A stretch of 64,000 nucleotides of DNA, taken from a virus. Positions 2-59,754 of the stretch are shown here, piece by piece. Below the pieces are notes generated by a model. It was given only the letters and a program-made list of their open reading frames with translations, did no database searches and was not told the origin of the DNA. Position 1 is the stretch's first letter. Each line of letters opens with the position of its first letter. The stretch covers positions 1 through 64,000 of the IMG/VR virus record IMGVR_UViG_3300017963_000242. One strand, 5' to 3'. The translations under genes and the position numbers were made by a program.

Positions 2-181
2 CAGGCAAAAGAGAAGGCGCAACGCGAGAGCGTGAACATCAGCGCCATGTTGCGTTCCTGGCTGTTAGAATGGGTGGAGGGAAGACGTGCCGTATCGAGC
101 GTACAAGACAGAACTCAAACCGACCAACATGTGGAAAATTGGAGACCTGTCGCCGTGGCTGACACAGAAAGAGGACGCTGA
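2..181 (+). CDS. Partial (5'-truncated) small ribbon-helix-helix-like DNA-binding protein
   Basis: Open frame QAKEKAQRESVNISAMLRSWLLEWVEG...; its TGA overlaps the ATG at 181. Confidence 0.45.
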   Translation, partial: QAKEKAQRESVNISAMLRSWLLEWVEGRRAVSSVQDRTQTDQHVENWRPVAVADTERGR

Positions 182-1218
182 TGACCGAACCGACCAATAA
201 TGACCAAGAAGTACGCGGCTTGACCGCCAAGTTGTTTGACAAGCTGCGTCTTGTGATGGGCGCGGTTGGCAGCATCAAAAAGGATGGATTCAACGACCAT
301 CACAAATATGCCTATGTTCGTGACCAAGATGTGAAAGATGCCGTCCGCGAAGCGATGCTAGACAATAACCTGATGTGGTTTCCGTCTTGCACTCGTGTCG
401 AGCAGGAAGGCAATCATACGGCATCAACATTCATCGTGACGATTGTAGATACCGAGACCGGGTTCACCTGGCAATTTCCTTGGTTCGGAGAAGCGAACGA
501 CACGCAGGATAAAGGCTTTGGCAAGTCGTCTACGCTTGGATTCAAGTATCTCTGGCTGACGATGCTGCTCATTGGCGTAGAAGATGACCCTGACGGCAGC
601 GCGCCAGTTGAGCGTGGAGACAGACCGCAGTCCAGCAGACAGACCTCTAACACTCCGGTCGAAGCCGCCGACCCGGCACAATTCAAGCTGCGCTTTGGAA
701 AACACAAAGGAAAAACCGTTGCTGAAATCGGTGGCGATCCAGATGATTCCGGGTGGCTCAAGTGGGCGCTTGAAAACCTGGACAATGACGAACGCAACGC
801 AGAACTGCTTACCACAATTAAAGCATACTTTGGTATGCTCGATGGCAATGCGCCACAGGCCGAGCAAGGCCACTGGACCGAGACGCAGGACTGGCAAGCG
901 TTCTATGCCGCAGCCGGTAGTCTCGGTCTGAGCAATGCCGATGTTCACACGGCGCTGAAAGTCAAAAGCGCCAAGGATTATCTTGGTACGAAAGGTCAAG
1001 CCTGGAATGCTCTGGTCCAGTTTGCTACAGAAACCGTTGTCGGCTGGCCGAACCATAGCAAGCTGCTCGAAGAGTGGTTCAGGTTCTTAAACTCGCTTCC
1101 TGCGGACAAGCGACCATCGCCCGGCCAAGCGGTCAAGTTGCTTGGCGATGGACCTATCACCGAGTTCAATGATACTTTGGCCGTGGCGATGAATATCGTG
1201 CGCGGCAAGATCGAGTAA
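181..1218 (+). CDS. ERF-family single-strand annealing protein (recombinase)
   Basis: N-terminal IKKDGFNDHHKYAY...DKGFGKSST..KY..EDDPD ERF pattern; internal FGKHKGK motif. Confidence 0.75.
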   Translation: MTEPTNNDQEVRGLTAKLFDKLRLVMGAVGSIKKDGFNDHHKYAYVRDQDVKDAVREAMLDNNLMWFPSCTRVEQEGNHTASTFIVTIVDTETGFTWQFPWFGEANDTQDKGFGKSSTLGFKYLWLTMLLIGVEDDPDGSAPVERGDRPQSSRQTSNTPVEAADPAQFKLRFGKHKGKTVAEIGGDPDDSGWLKWALENLDNDERNAELLTTIKAYFGMLDGNAPQAEQGHWTETQDWQAFYAAAGSLGLSNADVHTALKVKSAKDYLGTKGQAWNALVQFATETVVGWPNHSKLLEEWFRFLNSLPADKRPSPGQAVKLLGDGPITEFNDTLAVAMNIVRGKIE

Positions 1219-1302
1219 ACAGTAGGTGCATCTACGTTCGTTCTACCCGGCGTGGACCTAGACCGGCATTGACGGCGGGGATGCACCTAGAAAGGAAAGC
1301 AA

Positions 1303-2268
1303 ATGGACCAGTTACCATTGTTTGAAGAGATGACCGAGCCACCACAAGACGAAGTGTGGACAGACGATGGATTGCCTGATGCGTCGCAGCCGCGCAGCGC
1401 ATTGCACGCAGTACCAGAACACATCCGACGGCAGAAACTCGAAGGTCAGTTTGAACCTGAACCCGGTCTTAAGTTCTGTGCCTTTGACCTGGAAATCGCT
1501 CGACCGTTTGAGCTTGGGCGTCCCTATGGGATTTCGTGTGCGGCGACCTTGACCAGTGATGGTGATTCTGTCTTGTGGCACGGCGCAGAGACATCGCCTG
1601 ATGCACCGCTACCCGAACAGATGAATCCGCGAGAAGTACAAGAACTTGCTGGCTACCTTGCCGACCAACAGGCGCAAGGCTATCACGTCGTCACCTGGAA
1701 CGGGCTTGGTTTTGACTTTGATGTGCTTGCAGAAGAAGCACAAAACGAGTTGTGGACACTTGACATTGAAAAGCTGGCAATGGAACATATCGACCCGGCA
1801 TTTCAAATGCTGTGTGACCGTGGCTATATGGTCGGGCTTGAAACGGCTGGCAAGGGCCTGAACGTTGGTGCGAAAACAGAAGGAATGCACGGCGACCTGG
1901 CTCCTATTCTTTGGAGTGGATGGCCGGATGAGCTAGTCGATGACCAAGGAGAAGGCGCAACCCGAATGCGTTCTCAAATCGAGTTGCTTGACGTTGCTGT
2001 TGGCACGAGAGAAGCGCAAGACCTGTGCCTGATCTATGTCGCTCAAGACGCCAAACTGACAGCCGATGTCTATCGCGCTGTTTGTGAAGGAAAGCGTCTG
2101 CCCTGGATTGCGCGTAGCGGTCGGCCTAACGCCTGGTATCCAACGATGAGCGATAGCCGGTTGCTGACCGTGAATGAGGCGCTTGAAATCCCAGAACCAG
2201 ATACGTCTTGGATGTCCAGGCCGCGTCTGCGGTCTGATGTGATGAGTTGGATTGGCAAGGAGGCGTAA
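1303..2268 (+). CDS. DnaQ/RNase H-fold 3'-5' exonuclease-like protein
   Basis: ExoI FDLEI, ExoII WNGLGFDF, ExoIII YVAQDA motifs; follows the recombinase. Confidence 0.7.
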   Translation: MDQLPLFEEMTEPPQDEVWTDDGLPDASQPRSALHAVPEHIRRQKLEGQFEPEPGLKFCAFDLEIARPFELGRPYGISCAATLTSDGDSVLWHGAETSPDAPLPEQMNPREVQELAGYLADQQAQGYHVVTWNGLGFDFDVLAEEAQNELWTLDIEKLAMEHIDPAFQMLCDRGYMVGLETAGKGLNVGAKTEGMHGDLAPILWSGWPDELVDDQGEGATRMRSQIELLDVAVGTREAQDLCLIYVAQDAKLTADVYRAVCEGKRLPWIARSGRPNAWYPTMSDSRLLTVNEALEIPEPDTSWMSRPRLRSDVMSWIGKEA

Positions 2269-3011
2269 TGACACAACCATTTTTCAAACCACAACCTAAA
2301 GAGCCGTGGTCAGACTGGCGAATGTTTGGCCTTCTGCTCCCTGCACTGATTAGCGCACTTGGGTTTTTCATCACCGGCAGTTTCGCCTTTGCGTTCAGCG
2401 ACATCGGCGTTATCCCTGGTCCTATGCAGTCGTGGATGGTCATCGTCGGCAGCGCCTTGATCATCTTTGGCGCTGAAATGAATACGCCCTTTACTGCGGT
2501 TGAAGTCTTTCGCAAAATCTTGCGCAAAGAGGCCAATGGCTGGGACACCAGCGCCTTGGTCGTCTCGCTGATCGGGACGGTGGTCAACCTGCTCGTTACG
2601 TTCGCCAGCCGCTTGACGCTGGCAACAGCCTGGAAGAGTTTTGTGCTCAACTGGGGACCACTGTTGTCTGGCTTTGCTGTGGCGTGCGACTATTACGGCG
2701 CGTTGGTCGAGTTGGGCTTTTTGTTCGGTTCTTATGAGACGCGAATGGAGAGTTGGCTGGAAGAGAAGGCCGTGTATGATGCAGAGCACGGTATTGAACC
2801 GACCGAACCGATTCCCGAACCCGTTGCTGTCAACCCGCGCTGGCGGGCTGCGAACATCGACGATGTACGCGCGTTGAGGTTGAACGGAGAGCGGGCGACG
2901 TTGACCCGCGCTGGGCTCAAGCGTGCATTGGCAGAGCAGCGTCAGGTGCGGGTTGCTTGTTCGTCGTCCACGGTCGGGCGATGGGTGAAATTGGCAAAGG
3001 AAGGAAAGTAG
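2268..3011 (+). CDS. Four-TM membrane protein with C-terminal HTH-like tail (Spd/DUF2637-like architecture)
   Basis: Four hydrophobic segments, PE-rich linker, C-terminal SSSTVGRWVK; ATG overlaps upstream TAA and has AAGGAGG RBS. Confidence 0.6.
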   Translation: MTQPFFKPQPKEPWSDWRMFGLLLPALISALGFFITGSFAFAFSDIGVIPGPMQSWMVIVGSALIIFGAEMNTPFTAVEVFRKILRKEANGWDTSALVVSLIGTVVNLLVTFASRLTLATAWKSFVLNWGPLLSGFAVACDYYGALVELGFLFGSYETRMESWLEEKAVYDAEHGIEPTEPIPEPVAVNPRWRAANIDDVRALRLNGERATLTRAGLKRALAEQRQVRVACSSSTVGRWVKLAKEGK

Positions 3012-3012
3012 A

Positions 3013-3273
3013 ATGAAGGCGTTTTTCAAGTGGTTTGGTGAATGGTGGTTTTTGATTCTTCTTATCGGAGGCATAACTCTGATAGCAGCATGCTTGATTA
3101 TTTCTGGAATTATAGCAGACGCCGAGCGTCTTGATATTTGCTATCGCGGTGGATACGACACCGTAGAGTACCTGGGTGCACTTAATCGTCCTGGATGTTT
3201 GGACATCCGCGAAGGTGGTGTATACGTCGTTGTGCCACTAGATATCGTGCGTGCTGAATTGGAGGCTCAATAG
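3013..3273 (+). CDS. Small single-TM membrane protein
   Basis: N-terminal hydrophobic helix; tightly coupled to neighbours. Confidence 0.6.
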   Translation: MKAFFKWFGEWWFLILLIGGITLIAACLIISGIIADAERLDICYRGGYDTVEYLGALNRPGCLDIREGGVYVVVPLDIVRAELEAQ

Positions 3274-3690
3274 ATGGCGAATGGACGGTCCTCGTTTACA
3301 GCACCAGGACAGCGCGAAACGATTGTCCGTGGAGAACGAACAGACCCTCGTTCTATTCTCGGTCAGGCGTTCGTGTGGGGCGCGTGTGGCTCATTCGTTG
3401 TTTTGGTAGTGATGGTTTTCATTTTTTGGAACAAGGGCGTACGCTGGTATTGGATATGGGACAACCTGCGTTGGCTTGCTATTTTTCCAGTCGCGCCATT
3501 TGTCATTGCTGCGGTGCTGGCAGTCTATGCACTCACTGTGGAGATTTTTGACCCGAACTGGCCGCCGCCGCGCAAGGCAATGAGCAGCACGCGGCCTGTG
3601 TGGCCGCACAGTCAAGAGCGCGAACAACCCAAAGTGGACCGTCGCGTTAAAGTGGCCGACTTTATGGCCGAACTCAGCGAGGATGATTGA
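3274..3690 (+). CDS. Two-TM membrane protein
   Basis: Two hydrophobic segments; coupled to the FtsK gene. Confidence 0.6.
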   Translation: MANGRSSFTAPGQRETIVRGERTDPRSILGQAFVWGACGSFVVLVVMVFIFWNKGVRWYWIWDNLRWLAIFPVAPFVIAAVLAVYALTVEIFDPNWPPPRKAMSSTRPVWPHSQEREQPKVDRRVKVADFMAELSEDD

Positions 3691-5051
3691 AAATGAATTG
3701 GCTTGATATTGCATTGACTGCCGGCCTATCTGTGCCTGCCTACATCGCCGTGCGCCGCGTATACGATGACGTGATGATGCGGGTGATGGAGGCCCAGGCG
3801 CACAATACCAAACTGAACGCATACCGTCAGCGGCAGGCAGTGCGCAATCTGACGCACATCCCTGCGGACCAAATCGGGCGCGGTGGGTGGATGGTCAAGC
3901 CAGATGGGTCTATTTTGAATCTCGATACGCACGCGCAATTCGGCACTGACTGGAAACCGGCATACGTTGACGAGTTCCGGGAGCGATTGGACCATATGGA
4001 GCGGCTAATGCTTGCCGCTGCAAATATCAAGCAGGACGTTGCACCGCTCTTGGGTGCGACTGAGCCGGAAGTACCTCCGTTCCAATGGCCTCGGTCATAT
4101 CAGTACGAGCAAATGATGAAGTTGTACGTCAAGCGACCGTCACACCACAACATTTTGCTCGGCGTTCGGTATGATGATGATGGCAATGAGTCGCCGGTGG
4201 TCGAGGATATGGAGGATCTGATTCACATAATGATTGGTGGGCGGTCGGGCTTCGGGAAGTCAAACCTGGAATACGTCATTGCACGGCAGCTAGTGGATAG
4301 CATTGACGACTGTCGCCTTGCGTTTGTGGACTATGCCGGGATGACACTGAAACCGCTTGAGCAATCACCGCGTGTTCTGTGGCCCACTGCGACGGATGAT
4401 AAGAGCACGCTGCCCGTGCTGCGGAATGTTGTGCAAGAGCTTGAGCGCAGAAAGTCTCTTTTTGCAGACTGCCCAGGTGTACAGCGATTGAGCCAGTACA
4501 ACTCACTCGACCGTGAACCGCTCGTGCCGTGGTATCTGTTCCTGGACGAGACAAGCCAATGCCTACGAAATAAGGAATTGGCTGAAATGCTGACGGTTAT
4601 CTCTGAGCAGGCGCGCAAATTCGGGCTTGGCATTGTTGGCGCTGGTACAACCTGGCATGCAACTGTTGCGCCTGAGCCATTCCGGGTCAATTTTGCCACA
4701 CGGGCGGCTGTATACTGTTCTGCGGTGACTAGCCGCGTTGTGCTGGATCAAGATTCGTCTGCGTCTGACCTGGAACGCCCCGGCCTTGCCTGTGTGATGC
4801 TGCCCGGAAAAACTGGCGTATCGCGCATTCTGACACCGGAGGTTGAATTTAGAGTAGTCGATGGCGACGGACCGCTGATGGAATTGGATGTCGCACCAGA
4901 GCCATTAAGCGCGGGCGATAAACAAAAACGAATTCTTGAATTGCACCAGCAAGGCCAAAGTAACCGACAGATTGAGCGTGCTGTCTTTGGCTACACTGGC
5001 GGACACGCAACCACTCGCGTGAATGAGGCTATTGGCACTGCTACGATGTAG
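3687..5051 (+). CDS. FtsK/SpoIIIE-family ATPase (TraB-like: N-terminal TM, ATPase, C-terminal HTH)
   Basis: Walker A GGRSGFGKS, ELERR, Walker B LFLDE, QARKFGL; C-terminal helix-turn-helix-like segment. Confidence 0.8.
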   Translation: MKMNWLDIALTAGLSVPAYIAVRRVYDDVMMRVMEAQAHNTKLNAYRQRQAVRNLTHIPADQIGRGGWMVKPDGSILNLDTHAQFGTDWKPAYVDEFRERLDHMERLMLAAANIKQDVAPLLGATEPEVPPFQWPRSYQYEQMMKLYVKRPSHHNILLGVRYDDDGNESPVVEDMEDLIHIMIGGRSGFGKSNLEYVIARQLVDSIDDCRLAFVDYAGMTLKPLEQSPRVLWPTATDDKSTLPVLRNVVQELERRKSLFADCPGVQRLSQYNSLDREPLVPWYLFLDETSQCLRNKELAEMLTVISEQARKFGLGIVGAGTTWHATVAPEPFRVNFATRAAVYCSAVTSRVVLDQDSSASDLERPGLACVMLPGKTGVSRILTPEVEFRVVDGDGPLMELDVAPEPLSAGDKQKRILELHQQGQSNRQIERAVFGYTGGHATTRVNEAIGTATM

Positions 5052-5063
5052 TAAAAGTCGCAG

Positions 5064-5097
5064 TTATCCCAAATAGGCCATTTGGGATATTTGGGAT
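5064..5097. repeat. TATCCCAAAT/ATTTGGGATA inverted plus tandem repeat after the FtsK gene
   Basis: ttatcccaaat-aggcc-atttgggata-tttgggat. Confidence 0.7.
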
Positions 5098-5140
5098 GTC
5101 GTAGTAGTGGCTTTACAGAAAATTTACACAAGGAGATCAC

Positions 5141-5314
5141 ATGATAGTATTATTGGCGCTCGGCTTGTTGTGCACACTGGTTGGAGTCATTGGAATTTAT
5201 AATCTCGGCGCACAGTCCCGAACCATCAATGTGAATTTGTCCGGCGACTTGCACATCGGAAACGGAATCAGAGTTCCAGAAGGCGCAATAGTCATCCCGG
5301 CCAGAGCACATTGA
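5141..5314 (+). CDS. Small membrane-anchored hypothetical protein (57 aa, not in ORF track)
   Basis: AAGGAG RBS, ATG 5141, hydrophobic N-terminus, TGA 5312-5314. Confidence 0.5.
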   Translation: MIVLLALGLLCTLVGVIGIYNLGAQSRTINVNLSGDLHIGNGIRVPEGAIVIPARAH

Positions 5315-5350
5315 CAGTACGGAATATCAAGTTTCCATAAGGAGCACACA

Positions 5351-6142
5351 ATGACCAAAATTGAATGGACGCATAGAGAAGGCACAACAGGCGTTGCCTG
5401 GAATCCCGTTACAGGCTGCACTCCCGTCAGCGAGGGCTGCGCGCACTGTTACGCTGCACGTATGGCAAAGCGCCTCGCTGGGCGCTGTGGCTATCCAGCC
5501 GCGCCGCACGAGTTCGATGTCACGCTGCACCCGGACAAATTGAACGTGCCGCTACACTGGCGCAAACCACGCACGGTGTTTGTATGCAGCATGAGCGATC
5601 TTTTCCACGAGGACGTGTCGGACGATTATATTTACCGGGTGTTCCTGAGAATGGCAGAATGCAACGCGCACACGTTCATTGTGCTTACAAAGCGCGCGGA
5701 ACGGATGGCCGAATGGATGGACACGAACTGGCCCTATCTCCGGCAGGCGTGGTCGATGCAGAATATCTGGGGGCTCGTCACCGTTGAGAACCAGCAGCAC
5801 GCCAACGAGCGCATCCCGCATTTACTGCGCTGTCCGTTTACGGTGCGCGGCGTGAGCTACGAACCCGCGCTGGGTCCGGTGGATTTTGGTCTCGCTCCCC
5901 TGGACTGGCTGATCTGTGGCGGAGAGTCTGGTCCCGGCGCGCGCCCGATGCATCCCGATTGGGCACGTCAGGCCCGCGACTGGTGCAAGGTCGCTCGCGT
6001 GCCATTCTTTTTCAAGCAGTGGGGTGCTTGGCAATTTTTCCATACCGCACCGGATGGCAAGCCGATATATGAGCGTGTCGGCAAAACCCGCGCCGGTCAT
6101 CTGCTCGACGGAAAAGAGCACCACGAATGGCCGTCAGACTGA
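5351..6142 (+). CDS. Phage Gp37/Gp68 (DUF5131) family protein
   Basis: TKIEWT..WNPVTGCTPVSEGCAHCYA, SMSDLFH, GGESG, FFFKQWG. Confidence 0.9.
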   Translation: MTKIEWTHREGTTGVAWNPVTGCTPVSEGCAHCYAARMAKRLAGRCGYPAAPHEFDVTLHPDKLNVPLHWRKPRTVFVCSMSDLFHEDVSDDYIYRVFLRMAECNAHTFIVLTKRAERMAEWMDTNWPYLRQAWSMQNIWGLVTVENQQHANERIPHLLRCPFTVRGVSYEPALGPVDFGLAPLDWLICGGESGPGARPMHPDWARQARDWCKVARVPFFFKQWGAWQFFHTAPDGKPIYERVGKTRAGHLLDGKEHHEWPSD

Positions 6143-35588: not shown

Positions 35589-36334
35589 CTGCCTGCCAAC
35601 TCCACGCGAATGTAAGACCTCGACGGTACACCTGCCAGCAAGTCGAAAATCGAACCGATGTCCAGAGCCACCGCGCCGTCTCGCTTGGCTGCATTGCAGT
35701 AGCACTTTCCATTTGGCCCAGCACCGACTAACACCACGTCACCCGGTCCTACGTCCAGTTCTCGCAATATTCGGCTATGCGCGTTTGGATAGTGCTGCTC
35801 GCTTGGCTGGCCCATCTGCGCCTCTTGAGGTACTCTGATCCAGCGCACCTCTTCTATGAGCAAGTCGTTCTTGAATATGTCTCGCACGTCCCGGCACGTG
35901 ATGAGCGTTACCGATGACAATGCGCGTAGCAGGCTATACAGCAAGCCTTCCGAGTAGAGCCACCTGTGAACGCCACAATGGCAAGTATCGCCCCGCGCCA
36001 GCCCTTCCACCATCGCTAGATGATGCATCAGCTTGTAGAATTTGTTCCGGCTTTGCTGCTCGGTGCTTGGCAGTCCCAGCACATCAGCCCCCTGGCAAGC
36101 CGTGATTAGCTCGGCGCGTAACCGGCTGATACCATCCCTGTCCGGCTTCATTGTTCCGTACCAGTATTTGAGCGACTGGTTCAGGTCTGGAAACGAGATA
36201 TACGATGGATAGCCTATCAGCCGCGCCTCTCCATCGCCCAATCGAATGAGCGAAAATGGTTGACGTTCCTCTATTGCCTGTGCAATCTTGGCGTATACGC
36301 CTTGTGTATCGAGATGCGTCATCGCTGTATCCAT
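35585..36334 (-). CDS. GT-D fold glycosyltransferase-like protein (paralog)
   Basis: PFSLIRLGDGE, VGAGPNGK, ALDIGS. Confidence 0.7.
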   Translation of the reverse strand: MDTAMTHLDTQGVYAKIAQAIEERQPFSLIRLGDGEARLIGYPSYISFPDLNQSLKYWYGTMKPDRDGISRLRAELITACQGADVLGLPSTEQQSRNKFYKLMHHLAMVEGLARGDTCHCGVHRWLYSEGLLYSLLRALSSVTLITCRDVRDIFKNDLLIEEVRWIRVPQEAQMGQPSEQHYPNAHSRILRELDVGPGDVVLVGAGPNGKCYCNAAKRDGAVALDIGSIFDLLAGVPSRSYIRVELAGR

Positions 36335-36367
36335 TTGGGATAATTTGGGATAATGTACGGCTGTACG
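36333..36367. repeat. 35-bp dispersed inverted repeat, copy A
   Basis: Reverse complement matches 48200-48234 with 2 mismatches. Confidence 0.85.
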
Positions 36368-48151: not shown

Positions 48152-48199
48152 AATAGACCCGCCTTCTGCTTTTATGTCGCTATCGCCCACGTCATCCTC

Positions 48200-48234
48200 C
48201 GTACAGCCGTACATTATCCCAAGTTATCCCAAGT
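48200..48234. repeat. 35-bp dispersed inverted repeat, copy B
   Basis: CGTACAGCCGTACATTATCCCAAGTTATCCCAAGT. Confidence 0.85.
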
Positions 48235-58102: not shown

Positions 58103-59287
58103 TTAAGCCGGGTTGTCGGAACCGGCATAAAGCTCGTTCACCTTCCACCCTACATTGCCCAGCGAAATAGACAGAGCGATGTAGGCGGGATTGACACGAG
58201 TGTCAATCCCGTATGCTGGCAAGTCCTTCCGCGTCCCATCGGGTAACACCGCGCCCCCCACTTGCGCGATTTTGCTTAGATAGTTATTGTCAAAACTTAC
58301 CACATCGTCACCTAGCGCCGCCATGTGTGCAAGCTGTGCCTTCCAGCTTCCGCCCAGCAGATGAACACGCCGCCCTTTGAACGCCTCTGTAGGCAAAGGT
58401 GTACCGCCGTGGGAGGTAGGCACAGAGTAGCCCAGCACATAGCGATCTGGTATTTGATCAAGCACGTCCACTTTCGGGATCACAATCACGTTCTCAGCGT
58501 ACTGCTCAAGCTCCATCGCCCAATCAAGCACCTGGGGCAATTCGCAGAACTCGATACCGACTTCGTCACACTGTGACTTGCTCATATAATCGCGCACGGT
58601 AGCGTACTTGGGCCGTCCCTCTCGGCAAGCTGCCAAATGCTTACCGTGGTCGTATTTCTCGTAATCGCAATCAACAAACATAAGGCCGTGACTGCCCATT
58701 ATGTTCATATTTGGACAAAATGCCTTTCCTGATTGTAGCCCATAGCCGAACCCGGCCATAGCCGCCAAGCAACACGACGCCGGAAAAGTGGCAGTATAAA
58801 TCGCATCAATCGGTAGCTGGCGCGGATTCGGTTTGGCGCTCTTCGGTACGCCTAACAAATCTCCCGGCTCATCCCACCCCACCAACTCCCCCTCTTCGAA
58901 CCCCCAGTCGAGCAGGTCGGACATCTCGAACGACGACGCCAACTCATCCCAGTCCCACTGGCCCGTCGTGCCCTTGTGCAAGTACACCACCAACTTTTGC
59001 CGCTCTTGCTCCGTCAGCGCCCGCGACGACACGCGCACGTCTACCTCGTAATCCGGGCCAAACTGCGGCAGCACGCTCCACACGAGTTTTCTCTGATGCC
59101 CATCATACACTTCGTTAGTCGGGCCTATGGCGATGGTTTGAATCTGGCCGAACTCAGCCAGCGACTCGCCCAGCCGCTCGGCCTCACGTTTGTTGATCTC
59201 ACGCGGGTTGTGCTCCCACGGAACAAGATCACGTAGCTTGCGGCGCTCATTCGTCCAAGTTATCGGTTCACTGTGCAAGTCGCCCAT
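58103..59287 (-). CDS. ParB-N domain fused to TGT/DpdA-like (DUF6610-like) domain
   Basis: LVPWEHNPR..FG..DGHQR ParB-N; C-terminal FVD, YATVRD, VHLLGGS, SFD. Confidence 0.7.
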   Translation of the reverse strand: MGDLHSEPITWTNERRKLRDLVPWEHNPREINKREAERLGESLAEFGQIQTIAIGPTNEVYDGHQRKLVWSVLPQFGPDYEVDVRVSSRALTEQERQKLVVYLHKGTTGQWDWDELASSFEMSDLLDWGFEEGELVGWDEPGDLLGVPKSAKPNPRQLPIDAIYTATFPASCCLAAMAGFGYGLQSGKAFCPNMNIMGSHGLMFVDCDYEKYDHGKHLAACREGRPKYATVRDYMSKSQCDEVGIEFCELPQVLDWAMELEQYAENVIVIPKVDVLDQIPDRYVLGYSVPTSHGGTPLPTEAFKGRRVHLLGGSWKAQLAHMAALGDDVVSFDNNYLSKIAQVGGAVLPDGTRKDLPAYGIDTRVNPAYIALSISLGNVGWKVNELYAGSDNPA

Positions 59288-59613: not shown

Positions 59614-59619
59614 ATTCTC

Positions 59620-59653
59620 ATTATACTCGATTCCCGGCAGGATGTCAAGCTAT
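59620..59653 (-). promoter_or_regulatory. Leftward promoter L1 (late operon)
   Basis: TTGACA 59648-59643, 17 bp, TATAAT 59625-59620. Confidence 0.85.
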
Positions 59654-59689
59654 ATCCCAAACAAATCCCAATCCAGACTGGTCATATCC

Positions 59690-59754
59690 CAACCTTAAAT
59701 TTCCAAAAAGACTTGACAACTTCCAGAAAAGGTGCTATAATACTTATGAGGTTA
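59690..59754 (+). promoter_or_regulatory. Early sigma70-type promoter (repeated family), divergent from L1
   Basis: CAACCTTAA, TTGACA 59713-59718, TATAAT 59736-59741, TGAGGTTA. Confidence 0.85.

What the first reader, a model, noticed from the sequence alone, without database searches (positions are those of the whole stretch)
2268..5314. TraB/Spd-like DNA-spreading module in a phage
Seen: three coupled membrane genes, then an FtsK ATPase with N-terminal TM and C-terminal HTH, then TTTGGGAT repeats and another small membrane ORF. Known: Streptomyces plasmids move dsDNA using TraB (TM-FtsK-wHTH) bound to adjacent short clt repeats, with Spd membrane proteins for intramycelial spread. Inference: the phage may pump its genome across septa of a filamentous host or between cells without virions.
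Basis: partly seen in the sequence, partly recalled or inferred. Interest (0 to 1): 0.7.

Follow-up and report, generated by a model that had tools for sequence, protein, structure and literature searches.

The report
Membrane FtsK-like DNA pump module
A tailed phage, probably of filamentous Chloroflexota, carries a conserved set of small membrane genes plus a membrane-anchored FtsK-type DNA motor from a previously undescribed branch found only in mobile elements of that lineage, which may move its DNA between neighbouring cells, though no function has been tested.

Summary
At 2268-5314 there are three tightly coupled membrane genes, an FtsK/SpoIIIE-family ATPase with a hydrophobic N-terminal helix and a C-terminal helix-turn-helix (HTH), three TTTGGGAT copies and a 57-aa membrane ORF.

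For it:
- The ATPase belongs to a distinct FtsK clade. In 185,579 species genomes a pattern scan found it only in Chloroflexota MAGs (Anaerolineae, Caldilineaceae), which are filamentous.
- There it sits in a prophage related to this phage and in small integrase/replicase/ParM-like elements that resemble actinomycete AICEs.
- The order orfA, orfB, (orfC), FtsK-like recurs in at least five phage contigs.

Against it:
- The motor is not a TraB relative by sequence. pIJ101-type Tra scores 21-36 bits against at least 259 for family members.
- The HTH has three helices and no wing.
- The membrane proteins show no similarity to the pIJ101 Spd or KilB proteins.
- The TTTGGGAT repeats are not a private clt. 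The motif forms five clusters across the genome, three copies lying between divergent consensus early promoters.

The cis feature that travels with the gene is a CTACTAC/GTAGTAG hairpin around its stop codon.

Function is inferred, not shown. I put DNA transfer between cells at about 0.4 and segregation across septa at about 0.25.

The parts
1303..2268 (+). RNase H-fold exonuclease-like gene directly upstream. It is the conserved left neighbour of the module.
   Evidence: Pfam RNase_H_2, E 6.5e-4, below the cutoff. Homologues at 39-43% identity sit upstream of orfA in L034 and L038, directly in L034 and one ORF away in L038.
2268..3011 (+). orfA: membrane protein with four long helices and a C-terminal HTH-like domain.
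   Evidence: Hydropathy. 69 homologous clusters at 46% identity or more. Conserved motifs GAELNTPFT, NLLVTFASR and DYYG..E.GFLFGSYE.R, and a C-terminal LPS.STV.RWL. AF2 pLDDT 82. No PDB fold match.
3013..3273 (+). orfB: bitopic membrane protein with a conserved C-x3-GY-x4-Y-x8-C segment after the TM.
   Evidence: The alignment with L003, L034 and L038 has invariant C43, G47, Y48, Y53 and C62.
3274..3690 (+). orfC: two-TM membrane protein abutting the FtsK-like gene.
   Evidence: 45% identical to L004:9420-9833, which also abuts the FtsK-like gene. Nothing informative in the ESM Atlas.
3693..5051 (+). FtsK/SpoIIIE-family motor. It has an N-terminal hydrophobic helix, a small beta domain, a RecA-type motor (residues about 137-380) and a C-terminal three-helix HTH (407-451).
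   Evidence: AF2 pLDDT 93.3. Foldseek best hit is the FtsK motor 2iut, E 5.7e-18. It forms its own clade in the tree.
5036..5108 (+). Long hairpin spanning the stop codon. The outer stem (5036-5047 with 5097-5108) is built from the CTAC/GTAG-type arms that recur in relatives. The inner stem (5065-5074 with 5080-5089) is built from TTTGGGAT copies.
   Evidence: RNA fold -38.1 kcal/mol, z -4.7. L002 has the equivalent, z -4.2. GTAGTAG/CTACTAC is 90-fold enriched at the ends of family genes, P 5e-7. The feature was seen again in L034 and L038.
5066..5097 (.). Three TTTGGGAT copies: 5066-5073 (-), 5081-5088 (+) and 5090-5097 (+).
   Evidence: The same arrangement is present in L002.
5141..5314 (+). 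orfE: 57-aa single-TM ORF with a good ribosome-binding site. It is not conserved in relatives and is probably not part of the module.
   Evidence: No homologue in L002-L005 or L034-L038. L002 has an HNH-type gene at this position.
59654..59692 (-). Three TTGGGAT copies between divergent consensus sigma-70 promoters. Leftward promoter: -35 at 59643-59648 and -10 at 59620-59625. Rightward promoter: -35 at 59713-59718 and -10 at 59736-59741.
36334..36367 (+). 34-bp element: TTGGGATAA twice followed by TGTACG twice. It is the same motif class as the ftsK-downstream site.
48199..48232 (-). A second copy of the 34-bp element. A third copy lies at 70075-70108 of the genome, outside the window and just upstream of a promoter-like site.

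Best explanation
The locus is a conserved phage module for a membrane-embedded double-stranded DNA translocase.

Its components are:
- orfA, with four TM helices and an HTH;
- orfB, bitopic, with a Cys-GY-Cys segment;
- orfC, with two TM helices;
- a single-anchor FtsK-type motor whose C-terminal three-helix HTH would give it sequence-directed loading.

The motor belongs to a separate FtsK clade. That clade is shared by siphophages and small integrase/replicase/ParM-like elements of filamentous Chloroflexota (Anaerolineae lineage).

Most likely the complex pumps the element's own dsDNA through a cell-cell septum or membrane into the adjoining cell of the filament. That is the job TraB and the Spd proteins do for Streptomyces plasmids. 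It would be an analogue, not a member, of that family.

The TTTGGGAT repeats are copies of a phage-wide operator motif and are not a dedicated clt. The cis element that travels with the gene is the CTACTAC/GTAGTAG hairpin bracketing its stop codon. That hairpin is the better candidate for a loading site, or it may simply be a terminator.

Shown: the gene content, the fold, the clade, the host lineage, the synteny and the motif distribution. Inferred: DNA binding by the HTH, hexamer formation in the membrane, the direction of pumping and the target of transfer.
For: - FtsK motor with intact Walker motifs.
- Conserved N-terminal anchor in the family.
- The C-terminal HTH is conserved across 92 family members, consensus G.S...I.R.VFGY.GG.
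- The family forms its own clade (SH-aLRT 99) with 167 cluster representatives at E 1e-30 or better.
- All 11 genomic relatives are in Chloroflexota MAGs. In samples, 7 of 401 Anaerolineae-class genomes carry the family, against 2 of 401 phylum-wide.
- G001:C45 is a prophage sharing tail genes with this phage.
- The G002 and G003 elements carry an integrase, a primase-DUF927 or AAA_25 protein, TM proteins and the FtsK-like gene (with a ParM-like gene as well in G003). No capsid, portal or terminase family was among the Pfam families listed for roughly 20-30 kb around the gene, and the flanks are housekeeping genes. That is the operational make-up of an AICE, in which the FtsK-like protein is the transfer protein.
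- In L011 a TM+wHTH protein sits directly upstream.
- The orfA-orfB-(orfC)-FtsK order recurs in the window, L002/L003, L034 and L038; L004 has an orfA-like gene, orfC and the FtsK-like gene.
- No integrase or partition ATPase was found in this phage's early arm, which weakens a plasmid-maintenance role here.
- The phage has its own terminase and portal, so the motor is not the packaging ATPase.
- The stop-codon hairpin is conserved and was found again in two loci examined afterwards.
- L010 and L012 share an HTH variant and the same repeats. L009 has a near-identical motor but a different HTH and different repeats.
Against: - There is no experimental evidence for any member of the clade.
- There is no specific similarity to TraB or Spd.
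- The HTH lacks the wing of FtsK-gamma and TraB.
- orfA with small TM genes also occurs without an adjacent FtsK-like gene, in L035 and L036, so the membrane genes may have a function of their own.
- A ParM-like actin sits next to the gene in three elements, which fits segregation equally well.
- The HTH recognition helices of the window and L002 differ although both carry TTGGGAT.
- L034 and L038 have a different HTH sequence but the same GTAGTAG arms, so no consistent protein-DNA code emerges.
- By raw folding energy the gene ends are only marginally more structured than control gene ends, p 0.03.
- Host assignment rests on MAG binning and one related prophage.
- The all-genome scan was limited to a P-loop peptide pattern.
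Confidence: 0.4

Rival explanations
1. Segregation or septum-clearing motor. Like FtsK or SpoIIIE, it loads on the element's own DNA and pulls copies out of closing septa. This would ensure that both daughter cells of a filament keep the phage or plasmid genome during replication or a carrier state.
For: By sequence and fold the motor is closest to cellular FtsK and to a Bacillus phage FtsK-like protein. A ParM/Alp-like actin gene lies one or two genes upstream in L007, L008 and L014. Multiple dispersed TTGGGAT clusters would suit KOPS-like guidance.
Against: This phage shows no integrase, ParA or ParM, so a maintained state is not evident. The TTGGGAT clusters have no consistent polarity. The host's FtsK is present in the MAGs, as open frames of about 800 aa, and already clears septa. 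The small int-rep elements have no other candidate transfer gene.
Confidence: 0.25
2. Membrane organiser of early phage DNA metabolism. orfA tethers phage DNA to the membrane, in the way phi29 p16.7 does. The FtsK-like ATPase helps to resolve or move replication and recombination intermediates.
For: The module sits inside the early recombination arm, in the order Erf, exonuclease, module, DUF5131. The exonuclease is a conserved neighbour. orfA occurs without the motor in L035 and L036. Streptomyces phage papers guess at a replication role for their FtsK-like genes.
Against: It does not explain why the same motor clade sits in small integrative elements with their own replicases. It does not explain why the motor keeps a membrane anchor. 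The phi29 p16.7 comparison is from my own knowledge and was not tested here.
Confidence: 0.15
3. Exclusion or conflict function. A membrane DNA pump would expel or block incoming competitor DNA, or would act on host DNA.
For: PHROGs files phage FtsK-like proteins under moron/host takeover. There are weak PADLOC hits to FtsK/HerA-type defence ATPases, mad8 at E 4e-8. The neighbouring DUF5131 gene matches candidate defence-associated families.
Against: The PADLOC hits cover only the generic ATPase core. No partner of a known defence system is present. A conserved own-gene cis hairpin and a sequence-specific HTH fit self-recognition better.
Confidence: 0.1
4. Protein secretion ATPase of the EssC/EccC type, working with small membrane partners.
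For: EccC and EssC are the second-best structural and NCBIfam matches.
Against: It has a single ATPase domain, a C-terminal DNA-binding HTH, and no WXG100-type substrates or Ess/Ecc partners. FtsK itself scores better.
Confidence: 0.03

Closest known systems
Streptomyces conjugative translocase TraB/Tra with Spd proteins and clt (pSVH1, pIJ101)
   Same: Both have a membrane-anchored FtsK-type motor with a C-terminal DNA-recognition domain, translationally coupled small membrane genes including a 4-TM protein, and short repeats at the 3' end of the gene. Both occur in mobile elements of a filamentous host (PMC4447253; pIJ101 map).
   Different: There is no specific sequence kinship: 21-36 bits on the family motor model, hhalign probability 54%, and a separate clade. 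The HTH is three-helical and not winged. The membrane genes lie upstream rather than downstream and are unrelated to SpdA, SpdB or KilB. The repeats are not unique to the locus. The carrier is a tailed phage and the host phylum is Chloroflexota.
Cellular FtsK/SpoIIIE
   Same: It gives the best sequence and structure match for the motor, and it also loads on DNA through a C-terminal DNA-binding domain.
   Different: The phage protein lacks the 4TM domain (PF13491), the alpha domain (PF17854) and the gamma domain (PF09397) that the cellular hits carry. It is about half their length. It forms a separate clade on a long branch.
FtsK/SpoIIIE-like proteins of cultured phages (PHROG 1358; Bacillus phage Moonbeam gp188; Streptomyces phages Geonosis, Jaresh, AndoPrime)
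   Same: These are phage-encoded FtsK-family ATPases of unknown function. Moonbeam is the nearest outgroup, at 136 bits. They are annotated in phages of filamentous Streptomyces.
   Different: Identity is at most about 30% (24-30%) and covers the ATPase only. Moonbeam's protein is 771 aa and groups with cellular FtsK. Most such phages infect unicellular hosts. I did not examine their neighbouring genes, so a conserved orfA-orfB-orfC context has not been tested for them.
[quoted passage not shown]
   Same: The Chloroflexota relatives lie in small elements that carry an integrase, a replicase and a single FtsK-domain protein and have no T4SS. This is the make-up used to define AICEs (PMC2440964 and PMC3218068, listed).
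   Different: The phylum, the FtsK clade and the replicase types (primase-DUF927, AAA_25) differ, and a ParM-like actin is often present. No transfer has been shown. The window itself is a phage and not such an element.
phi29 p16.7 membrane-anchored DNA-binding protein (my own knowledge, not tested here)
   Same: Like orfA, it is a phage early protein that combines a membrane anchor with a DNA-binding domain.
   Different: orfA has four TM helices with conserved polar residues. No similarity between the two was sought or found.

Membership tests
FtsK/SpoIIIE family (Pfam PF01580, FtsK-HerA superfamily) | Profile match above the curated threshold | tested here: met
   PF01580 at 43.4 bits against a cutoff of 24, E 3.4e-11. 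PDB FtsK by profile, E 2.4e-11.
FtsK/SpoIIIE family (Pfam PF01580, FtsK-HerA superfamily) | Walker A and Walker B motifs and a RecA-type motor fold | tested here: met
   GGRSGFGKS and LFLDE are invariant. In the wider family K189, S190, D285 and E286 are invariant. Foldseek hit 2iut, E 5.7e-18.
Cellular FtsK | N-terminal 4TM domain, alpha domain and gamma winged-helix domain | tested here: not met
   PF13491, PF17854 and PF09397 are absent from the phage protein but present in the cellular hits. The model shows one N-terminal helix and a three-helix C-terminus.
Streptomyces TraB/Tra conjugative translocase | Membrane-associated N-terminus followed by an FtsK-like motor | tested here: met
   The anchor is weak in this copy and clear in relatives.
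Streptomyces TraB/Tra conjugative translocase | C-terminal winged-helix domain that recognises 8-bp repeats | tested here: not met
   An HTH is present but it consists of three helices ending at the C-terminus, with no wing. pIJ101 Tra shows a MarR-type wHTH. DNA binding cannot be tested with these tools.
Streptomyces TraB/Tra conjugative translocase | A cis-acting clt of direct 8-bp repeats at or next to the gene, specific to that site | tested here: inconclusive
   8-bp repeats are present at 5066-5097, but the motif forms five clusters genome-wide, one of them at the early promoters. The gene-linked element is the CTACTAC/GTAGTAG hairpin.
Streptomyces TraB/Tra conjugative translocase | Sequence or phylogenetic grouping with TraB/Tra | tested here: not met
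   Three pIJ101-type Tra proteins score 21-36 bits on the family motor model, against at least 259 for members. They fall in a separate clade. Only pIJ101-type Tra proteins were available; the pSVH1 type was not tested.
Streptomyces TraB/Tra conjugative translocase | Mediates dsDNA transfer or spreading | not testable with these tools
   This needs mating or spread assays.
Spd (spread) proteins | Small membrane proteins, translationally coupled, encoded beside the translocase | tested here: met
   The coupling criterion is from PMC4447253.
Spd (spread) proteins | Sequence similarity to known Spd or KilB proteins | tested here: not met
   No hit better than E 0.05 and 19 bits against pIJ101 SpdA, SpdB, Orf66, KilB and Orf56. 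Spd proteins are themselves poorly conserved.
AICE-like integrative element (applies to relatives L011 and L014, not the window) | Integrase, replication protein and a single FtsK-domain protein, with no T4SS or virion genes | tested here: met
   The window itself is a siphovirus with a portal, a terminase and tail genes.

The most novel reading that the evidence does not exclude
Phages and small integrative elements of filamentous Chloroflexota share a dedicated membrane DNA pump, made of the FtsK-like motor with orfA, orfB and orfC. The pump drives their double-stranded genomes through septa from cell to cell along a filament. A tailed phage could then spread infection, or a carrier state, without virions. 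This would be an independent, non-actinomycete invention of TraB/Spd-type transfer, with the stop-codon hairpin as its loading site.
Probability: 0.3. Interest if true: 0.9.

Novelty: new variant of a known kind. Interest (0 to 1): 0.58.

Why it matters
FtsK-type conjugation and intramycelial spreading are so far known only from actinomycetes. Here there is a separate FtsK clade, confined as far as searched to mobile elements of another filamentous phylum, with a conserved set of membrane partners. That would suggest that multicellular growth repeatedly selects for direct transfer of dsDNA between cells, and that phages may exploit it.

It also provides:
- a candidate host link (Anaerolineae) for an uncultured phage group;
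- AICE-like elements outside Actinomycetota;
- a well-folded, testable protein with defined candidate DNA sites.

If the motor only serves segregation or replication, the finding is a modest addition to the list of phage FtsK-like genes.

Tried and rejected
- Packaging motor: rejected, because the phage has its own large terminase and portal.
- TTTGGGAT as a private clt: rejected, because there are five clusters, one of them at the early promoters, and in L038 the motif lies 850 nt from the gene.
- Co-variation of the L004 HTH with its own downstream repeats: weak. Those repeats are palindromes flanking the promoter of a downstream RHH gene and are more likely its operators.
- Known defence system: no convincing PADLOC match.
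- Known RNA family at the hairpin: none.
- Close relatives: none among cultured phages, plasmids or IMG/VR when searching with the single protein. The first genome scan found nothing.
- orfA fold search and the orfC Atlas search: uninformative.
- Raw-MFE comparison of gene ends: only marginal, p 0.03.
No taxon labels are given for genomes reached through loci, so I could not break the hits down by class other than by sampling.
- The careful ML tree did not finish. The quick IQ-TREE result is reported instead.

Full report
**What is there.** The window is the first 64 kb of a 79.8-kb IMG/VR virus record (CheckV 94% complete, linear). It is a siphovirus-type genome with a portal, a large terminase, Dit and Gp37-type tail proteins.

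Genes at 181-6142 run on the + strand in this order:
- Erf-type annealing protein and an RNase H-fold exonuclease-like protein;
- orfA, 2268-3011;
- orfB, 3013-3273;
- orfC, 3274-3690;
- an FtsK/SpoIIIE-family gene, 3693-5051;
- a 90-nt gap;
- orfE, 5141-5314;
- a DUF5131 gene.

The starts and stops of orfA, orfB, orfC and the FtsK-like gene overlap or abut. Hydropathy gives about 4, 1, 2 and 1 TM segments for orfA, orfB, orfC and orfE. TTTGGGAT occurs at 5066-5073 (-), 5081-5088 (+) and 5090-5097 (+). There are seven copies in the window against 1.55 expected.

**The ATPase.** It matches PF01580 above threshold, PHROG 1358 and the solved FtsK motors. An AlphaFold2 model built on 92 relatives is confident, with mean pLDDT 93.3. 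It shows:
- a long N-terminal helix (residues 3-51) whose first ~18 residues are hydrophobic;
- a small beta domain;
- a RecA-type motor (about 137-380);
- a C-terminal bundle of three helices (407-419, 424-432, 437-451) that ends the protein, so there is no wing.

Foldseek ranks the FtsK motor domains first (E 5.7e-18), then EccC/EssC and TcpA. Walker A and B residues are invariant.

**A distinct clade.** Word-indexed search finds only seven close relatives (51-77% identical in the best local alignment), all metagenomic. A profile search of 1.84 billion representatives finds 167 clusters at E 1e-30 or better. Most of them align through the C-terminus, and the consensus keeps an HTH signature, G.S...I.R.VFGY.GG.

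On a motor-core HMM, scores were as follows:

| Protein | Bits |
|---|---|
| Family members | 259-372 |
| Bacillus phage Moonbeam FtsK-like | 136 |
| Rothia plasmid multidomain protein | 105 |
| Cellular FtsK, per half | about 62 |
| Three pIJ101-type Tra proteins | 21-36 |

A quick ML tree puts the family on its own long branch (support 99), apart from cellular FtsK plus Moonbeam and from Tra (the careful search did not finish). hhalign against pIJ101 Tra gives 54% probability over the ATPase only. The nearest plasmid-borne proteins are ordinary FtsK, not Streptomyces Tra. So this is an FtsK-family motor, but not a TraB family member by descent.

**Host lineage and carriers.** A scan of one genome for each of 185,579 species, using a family P-loop pattern, gave 11 confirmed relatives (30-39% identity). 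All lie in Chloroflexota MAGs labelled Anaerolineae, Anaerolineales, Anaerolineaceae or Caldilineaceae. These lineages are filamentous by established description. One MAG holds at least five copies. In samples, 7 of 401 genomes of the Anaerolineae class carry the family, against 2 of 401 drawn across the phylum; both of the latter were already known.

The carriers are of two kinds:
- Contig G001:C45 carries the gene beside an integrase, a ParM-like actin and a DnaA_N protein. It also has tail tube, chaperone and tape-measure genes homologous to this phage. It is a related prophage, which supports a Chloroflexota host for the window.
- Two other loci, on 126-kb and 47-kb contigs, hold integrases, a primase-DUF927 or AAA_25 protein, TM proteins and the FtsK-like gene (the 47-kb one also a ParM-like actin), flanked by housekeeping genes. 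No virion family was among the Pfam families listed for roughly 20-30 kb around the gene. That is the gene content used to recognise AICEs in actinomycetes, where the single FtsK-domain protein is the transfer function.

**The membrane partners.** orfA belongs to a well-conserved family of 69 clusters at 46% identity or more. The family has invariant polar residues in four long helices and a C-terminal HTH-like domain. It has no fold match in the PDB.

In related phage contigs the order recurs:
- L002/L003: orfA-like C-terminus, orfB, an extra TM ORF, an orfC analogue, then the FtsK-like gene.
- L004: an orfA-like 4TM+HTH protein, a phosphoesterase, orfC (45% identity), then the FtsK-like gene.
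- L034 and L038: exonuclease, orfA, an orfB-like protein, then an FtsK-family gene.
- L011: a 3TM+wHTH protein directly precedes the motor.

Two orfA-bearing phages have a ParB-like gene or a methylase in place of the motor, so the linkage is frequent but not obligatory. orfE is not conserved. None of the four proteins resembles pIJ101 SpdA, SpdB, Orf66 or KilB. The Spd proteins are in any case defined by function.

**The repeats.** TTGGGAT(A) forms five clusters in the genome:
- Downstream of the FtsK-like gene.
- Three 34-bp elements (TTGGGATAA twice, then TGTACG twice) at 36334, 48232 and 70075. The one at 70075 lies just upstream of a promoter-like site.
- Three copies at 59654-59692, exactly between two divergent consensus promoters (TTGACA-17-TATAAT on each strand).

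That layout is typical of an operator set for an early switch. The copies also have no common polarity. L002 keeps the motif downstream of its FtsK-like gene although its HTH recognition helix differs. L038 has three ATCCCAA copies at 10-bp spacing 850 nt away from its gene. I therefore read TTTGGGAT as a regulatory motif of this phage group, not as a private clt. Which protein binds it is unknown.

**A gene-linked cis element.** The segment 5025-5125 folds into a long hairpin spanning the stop codon (-38.1 kcal/mol, z -4.7). L002 has the same design with different outer-stem letters (z -4.2). Across 13 family loci, GTAGTAG/CTACTAC is 90-fold enriched within -60 to +90 nt of the stop codon (5 loci, binomial P 5e-7). 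This pattern was found post hoc. However, both loci examined afterwards, L034 and L038, show it. In each, a left arm lies inside codons for a Thr/Ser-rich tail and a GGTAGTAGTAG right arm lies 20-30 nt past the stop. Other members have inverted repeats of different sequence at the same place, such as (CAA)n/(TTG)n in L010 and L012.

L010 and L012 share an HTH variant and those repeats. L009 has a near-identical motor but the canonical HTH and different repeats. That is a hint of cognate pairs. L034 and L038 break any simple code, however. Raw folding energies of these gene ends are only marginally lower than those of control gene ends (p 0.03). The hairpin could be a loading site, a terminator or an mRNA end-protecting structure.

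**Interpretation.** The parts add up to a membrane-embedded, sequence-directed dsDNA motor with dedicated membrane partners, encoded by mobile elements of a filamentous lineage. The small int-rep elements have no other conceivable transfer gene, and this phage shows no integrase or partition ATPase. I therefore favour DNA movement between adjoining cells, a TraB/Spd-like function, at about 0.4. Segregation across closing septa comes next at 0.25, supported by the ParM neighbours and the closer kinship to FtsK. A role in organising early replication and recombination follows at 0.15, exclusion or conflict at 0.1, and protein secretion at 0.03.

The idea that phages of filamentous hosts spread DNA with Spd-like proteins was already floated for actinophages (PMC4447253). 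FtsK-like genes are routinely annotated in Streptomyces phages without a known function. What is new here is the clade, the phylum, the conserved four-gene module and the stop-codon hairpin.

**Limits.**
- Everything functional is inference.
- Host assignment depends on MAG binning and one related prophage.
- The all-genome scan used a peptide pattern.
- Only pIJ101-type Tra proteins were available for comparison.

Noticed in passing
L011:6276-15408 (G002:C77) and L014:4557-13877 (G003:C103): Small integrative elements in Anaerolineae MAG chromosomes. They carry a tyrosine integrase, a primase-DUF927 or AAA_25 helicase, TM proteins and one FtsK-family gene (L014 also a ParM-like actin), with no virion genes nearby. 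They have an AICE-like make-up outside Actinomycetota.
   Followed up: partly
L007:2525-3499, L008:6037-7065, L014:4557-5531: ParM/Alp-like actin genes (ALP_N plus MreB-like_C) lie one or two genes upstream of the FtsK-family gene in three Chloroflexota elements, one of which is a prophage.
   Followed up: partly
window 59619-59742: Two divergent, perfect-consensus sigma-70 promoters (TTGACA-17-TATAAT) are separated by three ATCCCAA/TTGGGAT sites. This looks like the early genetic switch of the phage. No repressor was identified.
   Followed up: partly
window 36334-36367 and 48199-48232; genome 70075-70108: Three near-identical 34-bp elements (TTGGGATAA twice, then TGTACG twice) sit at gene junctions, in both orientations relative to transcription.
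   Followed up: partly
window 5351-6142: The DUF5131 protein (E 1e-86) matches the PADLOC candidate families PDC-M41B and PDC-M30B at E of about 1e-75.
   Followed up: no
window 2268-3011: orfA belongs to a strongly conserved family (69 clusters at 46-81% identity) of four-helix membrane proteins with conserved E, N, D and Y residues and a C-terminal HTH. It has no Pfam family and no PDB fold match. Two database entries call relatives 'YidH (DUF202 family)'.
   Followed up: partly
L004:11190-11546: In the 84.9-kb relative, two palindromic repeats (GGTTTCTAATACTTAGAA-like) flank a TTGACT-17-TATACT promoter of a ribbon-helix-helix gene just downstream of the FtsK-like gene. Its FtsK-like C-terminal domain is also divergent.
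   Followed up: partly
L002:2024-2605: An HNH-type endonuclease gene occupies the position that orfE has in the window.
   Followed up: no
G005 (MAG 'Modern_marine_rock_biofilm.mb.101'): One Chloroflexota MAG holds at least five full-length copies of the FtsK-like family on different contigs. This suggests several resident elements or mis-binned phage contigs.
   Followed up: no
window 58103-59287 and L035:8464-9621: A ParB-N plus DUF6610 protein lies beside the terminase region. A similar-looking protein (judged by eye from its sequence, not tested by any search) follows the orfA block in L035, where other phages have the FtsK-like gene.
   Followed up: no
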